This document shows positions 40,601-52,131 of a stretch of DNA of 64,000 bases, in pieces. Position numbers: made by a program. This DNA comes from Octopus vulgaris (Eukaryota): assembly GCA_951406725.2 (NCBI GenBank), contig OX597837.1:22816001-22880000 (forward strand), in the 5' to 3' direction. How positions within the stretch are numbered: position 1 is the stretch's first letter; every line of letters begins with the position of its first letter.

Positions 40601-42506
40601 CAAAGCCTGGTGATTGTTGCAATGTTGATTTGTTAAAGAATTTGGAAACAAGAAATCTCTGGCCGCTAATGGTTATTCTGCCAATGATTCCTACAATGAC
40701 ATGTTGACAAGTTAGGCTTAATCAAAATGTGTGGGAGCAATCCAGTACTTATTTGGTTATTGAAGAGGAAATCATGGCATCACAATTTGGAATTCCTCAA
40801 AATCTAACAAGGATATGGAAAGGACAGAATAGATTAAATCCTTAAAGAATGGGTGAATGCTATAACATCATCATTGCTATTTCTGTAGGTGAATTATGGT
40901 TTACTTTAGTTGAAGGACTGGCATCCAGCCATTTGCAATAAAAATGGACATATTTACACTTGTGAGTCAAATACTCAAGTTGAACATTTCAGCTGAATAT
41001 AATGGTATGATTCTTAACTGTTGTCTTGTCACAGTGTATATACATATAACCAGTCAACAATGTACTTACCCTCCTCGCACTGACTTCCATTCTATTTTTT
41101 TAATTGGTTTACATGGTTCAAGTTTTCCATCTTTTCCAGGTTTTGCTGAAAAATAAGAAGCAAGAAAAAAAAATACAGTGCAAGAAAAGAAAGAATGATA
41201 TTGTTGAATAGATTTCCAAAGAATACTTTAAAACATTCTTAAAAAAAAAAAAAACTATTTGAGATGAATATATATAAAACAAATTTCACTTTCTAAGTTT
41301 TATTTTAATCATAGAAAAACAGAGAAAAACATTTGCAATATTTTAGTTGGAACTTTTAGAACCTTTTCAAACAAAATTCATGCAGCTGTTATTTCACTTA
41401 AAAAAAAAAAAAGGACACACATGTTTTGCTTTTAAAAATGTGTCAATAAAATTCATTTTCTATCAGCCATCAACAACAAACATGAAGACAGCAAAGAAGG
41501 TGCCATGATGGGTCTGGTTAAAAAGGAGCGATTGGTGGAGACAGTAGAATACCTATTTCTTTACTACCCACAAGGGGCTAAACACAGAGAGGACAAACAA
41601 GGACAGACAAACGGATTAAGTCGATTACATCGACCCCAGTGCAGGATGGAAAGCATTTACTTCAAGAAAAGATGTGCTCAAAGCACCATGTGCCAGCTTC
41701 TTCACGAGCATCGTCCTACCTGTGCTTCATGAGACATGAGCTGTTATAAAAAGTGGACAAGACTGATTGTCTGCAATGCAGAGGGGCATGGAAAGCATCC
41801 ATGTTAAGAATATCTTTGCGAGACTATGTCTGAACTGATGTAATTTGAGAAGGAACGGAGTGAATGACGTAATCACAGAATACCTATTTCTTTACTACCC
41901 ATAAGGGGCTAAACACAGAGAGGACAAACAAGGACGGACAAACAGATTAAGTTGATTACATCGACCCCATTACGTAACTGGTGCTTATTTAATCGACCCC
42001 GAAAGGATGAAAAGCAAAGTTGACCTCGGCGGAATTTGAACTCAGAAGGTAACGGCAGATGAAATACGAAATACCATTTGGATACAGGGTGAGGCTTGAT
42101 CAATGTCAGGTTGGTCTCCTGGACAAGAACATACATTGCAACACCTAAAACACCCCACAATACTGACACTGTAGCAACAGATATGACAATATAGATGTAG
42201 GAAAAAAATCGAATTAGTTAAGGCTCTGCAATAGAATGGTCTAGAACTGGCACTTCTGTACAAGCAAACTAGCTATTATCTGTGTTGTTATACCAGTTTT
42301 CTTTTTTAAAATAGGAAAAACATTAACATTCATCTGTGTAAATAGAAAAACCAGTTTTTGGAGAAAAGGAGATATAGCTGAATTAATCAAACTTAATATA
42401 ATATATATATACAGTGCATATTTTGTACAAGCCCTAACAGTTATCTAAGTATGTATATGTATGTACATATACACACACATATATATTTATATATATACTC
42501 ACACAC

Positions 42507-42561
<55 letters not shown>

Positions 42562-49700: not shown

Positions 49701-52131
49701 TGATGTCAACCTCTCACCTGTTTCCAAACAAGGTAATTATCCACAGATTAAGATTGAACAAATAAACAGCCTTGACATGGTTATGCTGGGGAAATGGAAA
49801 CAGATGACATGGTTTGAACAATAACATGTTAAGTCATGTCAAGAAGCCCGGATGTGCTTTTGTGATGGACTGCGAGTAAGCTACAGTGTTTCTATGAATG
49901 GTCAGGCTTTTGTTATCAATTAGCAAGCACACGTGATAACAAGGAGAATTAAAAATGCACTCACTGACACTTGCACACAGACACACACATGACAAGCTTT
50001 TCCACTTTCCATCAACCAATTTCAATAACAAGGCATCTATCTATTTACATTATCATCATCATCATTTAACATCCATCTTCCATACTGGAATTGGTTAGAT
50101 GGGTTGACAGGAGCTGCCAAGCCAAAGAGCTGCACTAGGCTCTATTGTCTGCTTTGGCATGGTTTCTACAGCTGGGTGCCCTTCTGAACATCAACCACTT
50201 TAGAGATTGTGCTGGGTGCTTAATATGTGGCACCAGCATTGGTGCTTTTTTACGCGACATTGATACAAGTGGGGTCATCAAGTAACTTGCTTGACAAGGA
50301 CTTCTCAGCTTAGACAAGAAGTGGAACTGCAAGAAGTGGCACGGAGCCAGGTGATTGGTTAAGGTATAATAGAGGAGAAAGATGTGTGTCTTGCTATAGA
50401 GGAGACATATGGCACCCCAGTAGGAAAAAAAAGGAGAGGAAGGAGAAATGGAGTTAGAGAAAAAAAGAGAGAGAGAGAGAGAATGAGAGAAATAAATGGT
50501 GTTGGAGATGCATCACTCTCTCTCTCTCTCTAAATATATATATATATATATATGCCAAACTAAAAACATCCTCCACACATTGTAAAGTGGTTGGTATTAT
50601 GGTGAGAAGGGCATCCAGTCATAGAAGCCAAACCAAATCAGAATGGAACCTGGTGCAGCTCTGGTCAAACTGTCCAACCCATGCCAGCATAGAAAACCAA
50701 CATTGAAAGATGATGATGAGATATATATACATAGATATCACCTGTATTGACCAGATTATCAGATATTTTACACTACTGGTTACAATGTGCTTACAATTCT
50801 TACTTGGTCATACCCTAGTTTTCCATTTTGCCCCAAATCATTTAGCTAAATTGTCTCCTCATTGTCGTAGAGGTCTTCTGAGTGGCCTTTTCTGATCTCT
50901 TGAAAATCATTTGGCAAACTGCATGGGTCCATCAGTTGTCTATGAACACTACAACATCTCCAGCCCAATGGAATTTGCGGCTTTCGGTATTCTGTGATAA
51001 AGGCGGCGAGCTGGCAGAATCGTTAGGATGCCGGATGAAATGCTAAGTGGTATTTCGTCTGCCGCTACGTTCTGAGTTCAAATTCTGCCAAGGTCGACTT
51101 TGCCTTTCATCCTTTCGGGGTCGATTAAATAAGTACCAGTTACGCAATGGGGTCGATGTAATCGACTTAATCCGTTTGTCTGTCCTTGTTTGTCCTCTCT
51201 GTGTTTAGCCCCTTGTGGGTAGTAAAGAAATAGGTATTCTGTGATTACGTCATTCACTCCGTTCCATTCTCAAGTTACATCAGTTCAGACATAGTCTCGC
51301 AAAGATATTCTTAACATGGATGTTTTCCATGCCCCTCTGCATTGCAGACAATCAGCCTTGTCCACTTTTTGTAGCAGCTCATGTCTCATGAGCACAGGTA
51401 GGACGATGCTCGTGAAGAAGCTGGCACATAGTGCTTTGAGCACATCTTTTCTTGAAGAAAATGCTTTCCATCCTGCTCTTATTCACTTTTTGATTTCAGT
51501 ATCAATGTCATGGTACATAATGGTTACATATTCACTGTGTACCCCAAATTGATGTACCTCTTTACTTTCTTGATTTCGTTACAGTGCAAGGTTGAACAGC
51601 TATGTAATACAGATAGATATATTATCGTCATCCTCATATATATATATATATATATCTGTAAAATAATATGTGACAATTATTTGGTAGCCAAGATAAAACT
51701 CTGAGTTTCGGAAGCTGAGGTAGAAATCCACAACACCATCTCTTCAGTTATCTGGCCATATTATTTTACATATTATTTTACAGATAAATTTCCTCTATTT
51801 GCATAATATTGAGGTCTCTTTCTTTCTTTTGTTATCTTACCGTTTTTACCAATATATATAATAATAATAATATTAGGGAATATGATTTCAAACTTACAGG
51901 GGAAAATTTATTTATTATTTTGTACTTTATTTAGTTCTAGGTAAATGTTTTTTCATATATTTAATTCTTTTCTATATGGTATGATTTAATTATATCATTG
52001 TTGAATTGCTACATGGTGGTTCTTCTCTAATTTATATACATATATATATATATGTAGGTAGGTAGGTTGAATAAATACATACAAACACATACACACACAC
52101 ATACTTATGTGTGGGCGGGCATTTGTGTGTG

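What the first reader, a model, noticed from the sequence alone, without database searches (positions are those of the whole stretch)
41546..51476. A single tomosyn exon bracketed by a locus-specific inverted duplication of about 430 bp (circRNA, exon-skipping or ADAR scaffold)
Seen: 41641-42076 is the reverse complement of 51048-51476, roughly 90% or more identical by eye. Both carry the same RTE-fragment/SINE junction, so this is a local copy rather than two independent insertions. The arms sit in the two introns flanking the 124-bp exon 44718-44841. Established: complementary flanking intron sequences promote back-splicing and exon skipping, and long dsRNA is an ADAR substrate; coleoid cephalopods edit neural RNA heavily. 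Inference: pairing would loop out this exon, and skipping 124 nt would shift the frame (likely NMD), giving a possible editing-sensitive control of tomosyn level.
Basis: partly seen in the sequence, partly recalled or inferred. Interest (0 to 1): 0.7.

Follow-up and report, generated by a model that had tools for sequence, protein, structure and literature searches.

The report
Transposon-derived inverted repeat around tomosyn exon
Two inverted copies of the same piece of transposon debris sit in the introns on either side of one exon of the octopus tomosyn gene; they could pair in the RNA, but this layout is common in the same gene and nothing here shows a regulatory role.

Summary
41638-42079 is the reverse complement of 51038-51479: 414 of 440 aligned columns are identical (94%), and the arms lie 8958 nt apart. 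They bracket only the 124-nt minus-strand exon 44841->44718. That exon is 100% identical to Octopus bimaculoides syntaxin-binding protein 5 (tomosyn).

Both arms carry the same junction. A ~234-nt SINE-like retroposon sits inside an older decayed repeat, and both arms keep the tail-side copy of its 13-bp target-site duplication. The right copy is whole. The left one is cut short at both ends and has a second 97-nt partial copy of the same junction beside it. So the left insert (41546-42079) descends from the right-hand composite or a close relative of it. A third, diverged copy of the older repeat (~61.05-61.62 kb) has no SINE.

In the pre-mRNA the arms could form about 420 base pairs. Skipping the exon would shift the frame.

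The architecture is ordinary here. Another of the three tomosyn exons in the window is bracketed alone by a 406-nt, 91% inverted SINE pair.

The RNA-level claims (circle, skipping, editing) and the genome-wide copy number could not be tested. The most likely reading is neutral TE debris that makes an ADAR-type dsRNA. Interest is low.

The parts
41546..42079 (.). Whole left insert (534 nt). It consists of the 97-nt partial junction copy, the older-repeat fragment and a 5'-truncated SINE. It lies in otherwise unique intron sequence, 2638 nt after the exon A donor and 400 nt before the exon B acceptor (gene sense).
   Evidence: The flanking 9-mers match at 7 of 9 bases, a possible target-site duplication that is not significant on its own (read).
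41546..41642 (-). 97-nt second partial copy of the same junction: 8 nt of the locus-specific flank plus the last ~89 nt of the SINE.
   Evidence: 99% to 51240-51144. It carries 8 flank bases that the other SINE copies lack. It matches the right arm at 93 of 94 columns and the main left arm at 89 of 94.
41643..41884 (+). Left-arm fragment of the older decayed repeat (LINE-like only by a recalled motif), including the tail-side target-site duplication copy at 41872-41884.
   Evidence: There are 3 in-frame stops in 85 codons of the one frame that reads through. A diverged third copy lies at ~61.05-61.62 kb.
41885..42079 (-). SINE-like retroposon copy in the left arm. Its 5' end is cut short by about 39 nt relative to the right copy.
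51038..51479 (.). Right arm: the part of the right composite that is homologous to the left arm.
50735..51592 (-). Right copy of the older decayed repeat, given as one part; the SINE is nested in it. The upper bound is approximate. It extends beyond the arm on both sides.
   Evidence: Homology to the third copy covers 50737-50985 (66% of 255, E=1e-23) and parts of the arm. The stretch above 51479 rests on reading only.
50999..51232 (+). Full-length SINE-like retroposon (234 nt) nested in the right copy, antisense to tomosyn.
   Evidence: The other full-length copies, 60156-60384 and 19041-19268, each have their own target-site duplication.
50986..50998 (+). Head-side copy of the 13-bp target-site duplication of the right SINE.
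   Evidence: Identical at 13 of 13 to 51233-51245 and to 41884-41872.
51233..51245 (+). Tail-side copy of the 13-bp target-site duplication.
44718..44841 (-). Tomosyn exon A, 124 nt, aa 236-277 of P0002. It encodes part of the N-terminal beta-propeller. It is the only exon between the arms.
41070..41145 (-). Tomosyn exon B, 76 nt (aa 277-302). It lies outside the pair.
60156..60387 (-). SINE copy in the same upstream intron, inverted relative to the right-arm SINE. It competes for pairing within the intron.
   Evidence: 234 nt, 89%; duplex -376 kcal/mol
42544..42990 (.). Copy of a second ~400-nt SINE-like family. It is inverted relative to 47296-47763 and forms a weaker inner bracket around exon A.
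   Evidence: 485 columns, 75.7%; duplex -574 kcal/mol
47296..47763 (.). Partner of 42544-42990.

Best explanation
This is transposon debris, not a dedicated device.

Origin. A ~234-nt SINE-like retroposon inserted, with a 13-bp target-site duplication, into an old, already decayed repeat in what is now the long intron upstream of tomosyn exon A (right locus). Later, a 440-nt piece spanning that junction was copied in inverted orientation into unique sequence of the next intron, 9 kb away. A 97-nt piece of the same junction was copied there too. The route was most likely a DNA-level local copying or repair event (inferred).

Expected RNA behaviour. Both copies lie in one pre-mRNA, so they can form an intramolecular duplex of about 420 bp that loops out exon A. 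The expected main consequence is that the duplex is one of many long dsRNAs from young inverted repeats that ADAR hyper-edits (inferred from published surveys). A low level of exon A back-splicing or skipping is possible as a by-product (inferred). Any skipped mRNA would be out of frame.

Basis of each step. Shown: the sequence anatomy, the common descent of the arms, the exon placement and the pairing potential. Inferred: the copying mechanism, pairing in vivo, editing and any splicing effect.
For: Anatomy. The arms are 414 of 440 columns identical. The same SINE/old-repeat junction, with the tail-side copy of the 13-bp duplication, is in both arms, and 8 nt of it are in the 97-nt piece.

Direction of copying. 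The right SINE is whole, with both duplication copies, and the old repeat continues on both sides of it. The left copy is cut short at both ends.

SINE status. 3 of 3 full-length copies in the window have their own 13-17-nt duplications.

The composite is not a feature of the old-repeat family as such: the 1 further copy found in the window has no SINE at that site.

The arms are closer to each other than either is to other SINE copies (93.7% vs 84-89%).

Pairing. RNAduplex gives -766 kcal/mol with 420 pairs, against -110 and -94 kcal/mol for each arm folded alone. The pre-mRNA duplex has 414 Watson-Crick pairs, 7 G.U, 11 A:C, 6 other mismatches and 2 bulges.

Ordinariness. There are 12 distinct inverted pairs of >=200 nt and >=85% (16 rows) in the window. 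Exon C is bracketed alone by a 406-nt, 91.4% pair of -676 kcal/mol.

Literature (passages). Metazoan editing, O. bimaculoides included, mainly targets dsRNA from young repeats (PMC9989829). In octopus most editing is in introns and 3'UTRs, and circRNAs are at low levels (PMC9699675).
Against: No RNA data were examined, so pairing, editing, skipping and circles are all unobserved.

The genome-wide copy number of the composite is unknown. The one indirect test had no power: of 2 database ORFs similar to the junction-spanning ORF, 0 carry the junction.

The divergence is lopsided, which a single clean duplication does not predict. Of 13 SINE differences, 9 are left-derived, 0 right-derived and 4 unpolarised. 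The 97-nt piece is 99% like the right arm while the main left arm is ~94% like it.

The right-arm SINE has a same-intron partner that is transcribed earlier.

No orthologous intron could be compared.
Confidence: 0.7

Rival explanations
1. The pair is a working, editing-sensitive gate. Pairing loops out exon A and drives a 124-nt circle or exon skipping. The frameshifted mRNA is degraded. ADAR editing of the duplex tunes how much tomosyn is made.
For: The cross-exon duplex is very strong (-766 kcal/mol) and is the best inverted pair in the window. 124 nt shifts the frame, and a stop follows in exon B read alone. 11 A:C mismatches in the pre-mRNA duplex could become I-C pairs; the abstract of PMC8938519 reports that editing can stabilise or destabilise such pairing. 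Flanking complementary matches promote both back-splicing and skipping in C. elegans (PMC8330042, abstract).
Against: Nothing marks this pair out from neighbours of the same kind; exon C has an equivalent bracket. The arms are far from the splice sites, at 6196 and 2638 nt. The donor is a strong GTAAGT. The exon encodes part of the core beta-propeller. All 8 database relatives contain the exon, but only exon-containing proteins could be found, so this is weak. circRNAs are reported low in octopus. The copy looks young (about 5.5% divergence), so there is no conservation argument. No paper links tomosyn, RNA editing and cephalopods (0 hits).
Confidence: 0.05
2. The arms are not a local copy. 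They are two members of a multi-copy composite repeat spread through the genome (for example by segmental duplication or passive mobilisation of the SINE-bearing fragment) that happen to lie 9 kb apart.
For: The divergence is lopsided, and the 97-nt piece and the main left arm have different ages, which would fit several source copies. The left insert is flanked by 9-mers matching at 7 of 9, which could be a target-site duplication of an inserted unit. Genome-wide copy number was not checked.
Against: There is no further copy of the junction in the other 54 kb of the window, although the SINE alone has 8 further matches. Both arms share 3 stops in 85 codons of the fragment, so the common ancestor was already dead. 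The left copy lacks the 3' end that a retro-copied fragment would be expected to keep. Two chance neighbours 9 kb apart would need a very high copy number.
Confidence: 0.15
3. Assembly artefact: one arm, or the 97-nt piece, was created or reshaped by misassembly or by polishing a high-copy repeat towards its family average.
For: The right SINE and the 97-nt piece show no private changes against two outgroup copies. A 333-bp tandem array with 100% identical copies at 34641-36521 shows that the assembly holds suspiciously perfect repeats.
Against: The arms differ at 26 of 440 columns and have different, unique flanks. The right old-repeat part does carry 2 private substitutions.
Confidence: 0.04

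Closest known systems
Exon-bracketing intronic inverted repeats: reverse complementary matches, such as inverted Alu pairs in human circRNA loci and the zip-2 match in C. elegans (PMC8330042 abstract; PMC8938519 abstract; the Alu papers are recalled, not read)
   Same: There are complementary sequences in the two introns flanking an exon with canonical splice sites. They derive from retroposons and lie within one pre-mRNA. The duplex contains A:C mismatches and G.U pairs that editing could change.
   Different: No back-splice or skipped transcript has been seen here. The arms are much longer and more alike (440 nt, 94%) than the 13-nt zip-2 match. They lie 2.6 and 6.2 kb from the exon. They descend from one junction rather than from two independent insertions. 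The exon is short for a single-exon circle (recalled).
ADAR hyper-editing substrates formed by nearby inverted young repeats (PMC9989829, passages; PMC9699675, passages)
   Same: A long, near-perfect intramolecular duplex made of young repeat copies inside introns of a neural gene, in a species included in that survey.
   Different: Editing at this locus was not examined. The loop is long (about 9 kb) and contains an exon.
The inverted pair of the ~400-nt SINE-like family around exon C of the same gene (4101-4503 / 14541-14945)
   Same: Same gene, same architecture: 406 nt, 91.4%, 10 kb apart, one exon of non-multiple-of-3 length inside, duplex -676 kcal/mol.
   Different: That pair consists of two ordinary members of a 10-copy family. 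The pair in the finding is a composite with a unique shared junction.

Membership tests
Exon-bracketing reverse complementary match (circRNA/skipping architecture) | Complementary sequences in the upstream and the downstream intron of the same exon(s) | tested here: met
   Arms at 51038-51479 and 41638-42079; exon A is the only exon between them.
Exon-bracketing reverse complementary match (circRNA/skipping architecture) | Canonical acceptor and donor on the bracketed exon | tested here: met
   AG before 44841 and GTAAGT after 44718 on the minus strand.
Exon-bracketing reverse complementary match (circRNA/skipping architecture) | Cross-exon pairing stronger than pairing within either intron | tested here: inconclusive
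   The cross-exon duplex is -766 kcal/mol. Against it stand -376 kcal/mol for the right SINE with 60156-60387 in the same intron and -387 kcal/mol for the hairpin at 43478-44651. These are thermodynamics of isolated arms only. The competitor is transcribed first, and the 10-kb span was not folded.
Exon-bracketing reverse complementary match (circRNA/skipping architecture) | An observed back-splice junction or skipped transcript | not testable with these tools
   No RNA reads were available. The 2 supplementary files of PMC9699675 held as text have 0 occurrences of tomosyn, STXBP5 or circRNA; its data tables were not seen.
ADAR hyper-editing substrate | Long, near-perfect intramolecular dsRNA | tested here: met
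   420 predicted pairs; longest uninterrupted helix 66 bp.
ADAR hyper-editing substrate | Clustered A>G mismatches between RNA and DNA | not testable with these tools
   No RNA data.
SINE retroposon | Short dispersed copies, each with its own target-site duplication | tested here: met
   10 matches to the right-arm SINE beyond the query itself: 8 at other loci and 2 in the left insert. 3 of 3 full-length copies have 13-17-nt duplications.
SINE retroposon | tRNA-, 5S- or 7SL-derived head with an internal Pol III promoter | tested here: inconclusive
   ARAGORN finds 0 genes in the window. Rfam gives 0 matches at gathering score and 0 at E<=1 on 50950-51300. The box-like motifs were seen by eye and are recalled.
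   Word-indexed search: 0 hits at E<=0.1. phmmer over 1.84 billion proteins: 3 hits, all internally repetitive proteins with no RT domain. Atlas: no usable hit. Against the window's own LINE ORF2, one read-through alignment was reached by 5 of 300 shuffles, but 6 of 6 stop-free pieces gave no co-linear match. The resemblance to a LINE ORF2 C-terminus is recalled only.
Local inverted duplication | Copies share a junction that independent insertions would not share | tested here: met
   Same SINE tail/flank junction with the 13-bp duplication copy in both arms.
Local inverted duplication | The junction is absent elsewhere in the genome | not testable with these tools
   No cephalopod genome collection was available. 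It is absent from the rest of the window.

The most novel reading that the evidence does not exclude
A lineage-specific, transposon-born RNA gate. In octopus neurons the 420-bp duplex loops out exon A of tomosyn, an inhibitor of synaptic vesicle release. The degree of ADAR editing of the duplex (11 A:C sites that editing could close, many A-U pairs it could open) then sets the balance between productive mRNA and circular or frameshifted products.
Probability: 0.03. Interest if true: 0.65.

Novelty: new member of a known kind. Interest (0 to 1): 0.2.

Why it matters
If the pair did gate exon A, it would be a young, species-lineage-specific link between transposon activity, the heavy RNA editing of coleoids and the dosage of a synaptic release regulator. 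As it stands, it is a clean worked example of how SINE-rich octopus introns create long intramolecular dsRNA inside neural genes. It is also a caution for the scan: 2 of the 3 tomosyn exons in this window are bracketed alone by inverted repeats of 400 nt or more, so the layout by itself is not a signal. The origin has minor interest for how small inverted duplications arise. Two nested partial copies of one junction sit 9 kb from the source, and their apparent ages differ.

Tried and rejected
1. Confirming the 'RTE' label. Searches gave nothing usable. One search gave a weak co-linear alignment to the window's own LINE ORF2 (5 of 300 shuffles reach it). One search did not reproduce it piece by piece (0 of 6 pieces co-linear). 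The label stays unconfirmed.

2. Testing copy number through the protein database, using the ORF that spans the junction. It gave 2 hits, both plain SINE-antisense ORFs without the junction. The test has no power.

3. An RNA-editing footprint in the left-arm changes. The 9 polarised changes are 3 T>C, 3 G>A and 3 C>T, so there is no single-type signature. Rejected.

4. A Pol III read-through retrocopy as the origin of the left insert. By eye there are T-runs in SINE sense inside the would-be read-through, and a 9-kb neighbour is improbable for retroposition. Not favoured.

5. An active LINE subfamily carrying the SINE. Rejected, because both arms share 3 stops in 85 codons and the third family copy lacks the SINE.

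6. tRNA origin of the SINE head. ARAGORN and Rfam found nothing.

7. Empty-site evidence for the left insert. Its flanks have no other copy in the window.

8. Upstream tomosyn exon. None is in the window (best E=1.5).

9. Folding the whole 10-kb span was not attempted, because it is too long for the tools.

10. One search failed because the references contained stops. One search failed on a term that was too long and was not repeated.
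Full report
**1.
- The ungapped repeat finder reports two adjoining inverted pairs: 41852-42079/51038-51265 (228 nt, 93%) and 41727-41851/51267-51391 (125 nt, 96%).
- Gapped BLAST joins them: 41638-42067 against 51479-51050, 94.7% over 431 columns, E=0. The pair extends to 42079/51038 at 94.1% of 440.
- A global alignment has 414 of 440 columns identical, with 18 transitions (7 at CpG), 6 transversions and 2 one-base indels.
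- The window has no N.
It is 99% identical to 51240-51144 and 95.7% identical to 41877-41969 inside the left arm.

**2. The gene.**
- The exon is on the minus strand, 44841->44718, 124 nt. An AG precedes it and GTAAGT follows it.
- Its 41-residue translation, searched alone, found 8 proteins at E<=0.001 among 16 candidates. The best two are Octopus bimaculoides syntaxin-binding protein 5 (tomosyn) isoforms X4 and X2, at 100% identity and coverage.
- Mapping that reference protein onto the window gives three exons:
  - exon A, 44841->44718 (aa 236-277);
  - exon B, 41145->41070 (76 nt, aa 277-302);
  - exon C, 7884->7730 (155 nt).
- No upstream exon lies in the window (best E=1.5). The upstream intron therefore exceeds 19 kb. 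The downstream intron is 3572 nt (41146-44717).
- Exon A encodes part of the N-terminal beta-propeller, just before the LLGL domain.
- I searched the spliced model exon by exon and left the joined-exon step out. The frame consequence of skipping comes from the exon length (124 mod 3 = 1) and from exon B read alone from its first base, which meets a stop at codon 18.
- The right arm lies 6196 nt upstream of the exon A acceptor. The left arm lies 2638 nt downstream of its donor, and the left insert ends 400 nt before the exon B acceptor.

**3. What the arms are made of.**

*The SINE-like half.*
- One half (41885-42079; 50999-51232 on the right) is a dispersed ~230-nt repeat.
- The right-arm copy matches 10 other places in the window: 8 at other loci and 2 in the left insert. 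These include full-length copies at 60156-60384 (89%) and 19041-19268 (86%).
- All 3 full-length copies have their own 13-17-nt target-site duplications, so it behaves as a SINE.
- Its tRNA origin was not confirmed. ARAGORN found 0 genes. Rfam gave 0 matches at gathering score and 0 at E<=1.

*The other half.*
- The other half (41643-41884) has no close copy elsewhere in the window.
- It and the sequence beyond the right SINE match a diverged third copy at about 61053-61620: 66% over 255 columns (E=1e-23), and 75-79% over two short stretches.
- That third copy runs uninterrupted through the site where the arms carry the SINE.
- The older element is therefore a repeat family, and the SINE insertion is private to the lineage of the two arms.

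*The 'RTE' label.*
- By eye, the translation of the older element resembles the C-terminal part of a LINE ORF2. That is a recalled motif.
- No tool confirmed it.
- The fragment was dead before the arms separated. Both share 3 in-frame stops in 85 codons. The right copy has in addition 2 one-base indels relative to the left within the arm, further stops outside the arm, and the SINE insertion.

**4. Common descent and direction of copying.**
- In the right locus the SINE (50999-51232) is complete and flanked by a perfect 13-bp duplication (50986-50998 = 51233-51245). The older repeat continues on both sides.
- The left arm holds the same tail-side junction, including the 13-bp copy at 41872-41884. 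It lacks the first ~39 nt of the SINE, the head-side duplication and everything beyond. It also starts later in the older repeat.
- The 97-nt piece again carries 8 nt of the private flank that the other SINE copies lack.
- The left insert (41546-42079, 534 nt, in otherwise unique sequence) therefore descends from the right composite or a close relative, not the reverse.
- Whether the junction is unique in the genome could not be tested. No cephalopod genome collection was available, and the two closed collections were not used. An indirect protein-database test had no power (0 of 2 hits carry the junction).
- How the copy was made is inferred. Several facts are compatible with a local DNA copying or repair event with template switching:
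  - two nested pieces from one source;
  - the same inverted orientation for both;
  - a 2-nt overlap where the pieces meet;
  - flanking 9-mers that match at 7 of 9.
- None of these facts proves that mechanism.

**5. An unexplained feature.**
- With the two other full-length SINE copies as outgroups, 13 differences between the arms fall in 180 comparable columns. 9 are private to the left arm (all transitions: 3 T>C, 3 G>A, 3 C>T), 0 are private to the right arm, and 4 cannot be polarised.
- The 97-nt piece agrees with the right arm at 93 of 94 columns. It differs from the main left arm at 5 of 94.
- In the older-repeat half, only 3 of 8 differences can be polarised with the third copy. 2 are right-private substitutions and 1 is a left-private one-base deletion.
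- A single clean duplication followed by equal decay does not predict this pattern.
- Untested candidates: two copying events of different age; gene conversion of the right SINE by other copies; polishing of a high-copy repeat in the assembly; a third unseen source copy; error-prone copying.
- The mix of change types argues against an RNA-editing footprint.

**6. Pairing potential.**
- In the pre-mRNA (minus strand), the arms give 414 Watson-Crick pairs, 7 G.U, 11 A:C, 6 other mismatches and 2 bulges. The longest uninterrupted helix is 66 bp.
- RNAduplex gives -766 kcal/mol (420 pairs), against -110 and -94 kcal/mol for each arm folded alone.
- Competitors exist:
  - the right-arm SINE can pair with 60156-60387 in the same intron (234 nt, 89%, -376 kcal/mol), which is transcribed first;
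  - a transposon-like element with long terminal inverted repeats (43478-44651, -387 kcal/mol) starts 67 nt after the exon A donor;
  - a weaker inner bracket (42544-42990 / 47296-47763, 75.7%, -574 kcal/mol) also spans exon A.
- The full 10-kb span was not folded.

**7. How special is it?**
- The whole window lies inside the tomosyn transcription unit. It holds 12 distinct inverted pairs of >=200 nt and >=85% (16 rows), and 52 rows at >=100 nt and >=80%.
- The pair in the finding is the best of them.
- Exon C is bracketed alone by a 406-nt, 91.4% pair of a second SINE-like family, 10 kb apart, at -676 kcal/mol.
- Exon B is bracketed alone by pairs of 183 nt and 136 nt.
- So 2 of 3 exons here have brackets of 400 nt or more.

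**8. Literature.**
- Repeats make up about 66% of the O. vulgaris genome, and SINEs 11.6% (PMC13282606, passages).
- Across metazoans, including O. bimaculoides neural tissue, editing mainly hits clustered sites in dsRNA from young repeats (PMC9989829, passages).
- In O. vulgaris most editing is in introns and 3'UTRs. Editing very rarely alters splice sites, and circRNAs are at overall low levels (PMC9699675, passages). [quoted passage not shown]
- Flanking complementary matches promote both back-splicing and skipping in C. elegans (PMC8330042, abstract).
- ADAR editing can strengthen or weaken such pairing (PMC8938519, abstract).
- No paper in the library combines tomosyn, RNA editing and cephalopod (0 hits).
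- 'Octopus' with 'circRNA' gave 30 papers, of which 15 were listed. Only PMC9699675 deals with octopus circRNAs by title or abstract.
- Names of human STXBP5 circles occur in 8 papers (listing only).

**9. Verdict.**
- The structure is real, and the two arms share one ancestral SINE insertion.
- The most likely biology is passive. A young inverted duplicate of transposon debris can form a long intramolecular dsRNA in a neural pre-mRNA. It is probably hyper-edited like its many neighbours. At most it has a minor side effect on exon A.
- Using the calibration quoted in PMC13282606 (JC 0.065 for about 18 My; O. vulgaris/O. bimaculoides split 13.3-33.5 My ago), about 5.5% divergence suggests an age of very roughly 8-16 My. 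That is near or after the split, so conservation is not expected (inference).

Noticed in passing
window 22692-26451 (minus strand): There is an open 921-aa ORF with endonuclease/exonuclease/phosphatase and reverse-transcriptase domains (22692-25454), preceded by an open 302-aa ORF with no Pfam match (25546-26451). Together they look like an uninterrupted non-LTR retrotransposon, in the same orientation as tomosyn, inside the 33-kb intron between exons B and C. This is probably the operators' virus-like stretch. It is described only. It is unrelated to the repeat in the arms.
   Followed up: partly
window 34641-36521: A tandem array of a 333-bp unit whose copies are 100% identical over 1548 nt of self-overlap. 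It is either very young or an assembly artefact.
   Followed up: no
window 4101-4505, 9594-9985, 14534-14945, 15606-16027, 27332-27739, 30239-30660, 31110-31526, 34184-34584, 42544-42990, 47296-47763: A second SINE-like family of about 400 nt with an internal (AC)n/(AT)n stretch has ten copies in both orientations. It gives most of the long inverted pairs in the window.
   Followed up: partly
window 4101-4503 and 14541-14945 around exon C (7730-7884): A 406-nt, 91.4% inverted pair, 10 kb apart, brackets exon C alone, with a predicted duplex of -676 kcal/mol. This is the same architecture as the finding.
   Followed up: yes
window 43478-44651: An element of about 1.2 kb with terminal inverted repeats (220 nt at 84% ungapped; 354 nt at 81% gapped), flanked by (TA)n. 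It starts 67 nt after the exon A donor. It looks like a DNA transposon and would form a hairpin within the downstream intron.
   Followed up: partly
window about 61053-61620 (plus strand): A third, diverged copy (66-79%) of the older repeat found in the arms. It has no SINE at the site where the arms carry one. About 230 extra bases lie between its two matching stretches.
   Followed up: partly
window 41546-42079 vs 50999-51245: The divergence is lopsided. 9 of 13 SINE differences are private to the left arm and 0 to the right arm, yet the adjacent 97-nt piece is 99% like the right arm. This is unexplained.
   Followed up: partly
window 7707-7730: Isoform X4 of the reference protein (P0001) aligns past the exon C donor down to 7707, which suggests an alternative donor or a retained stretch.
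   Followed up: no
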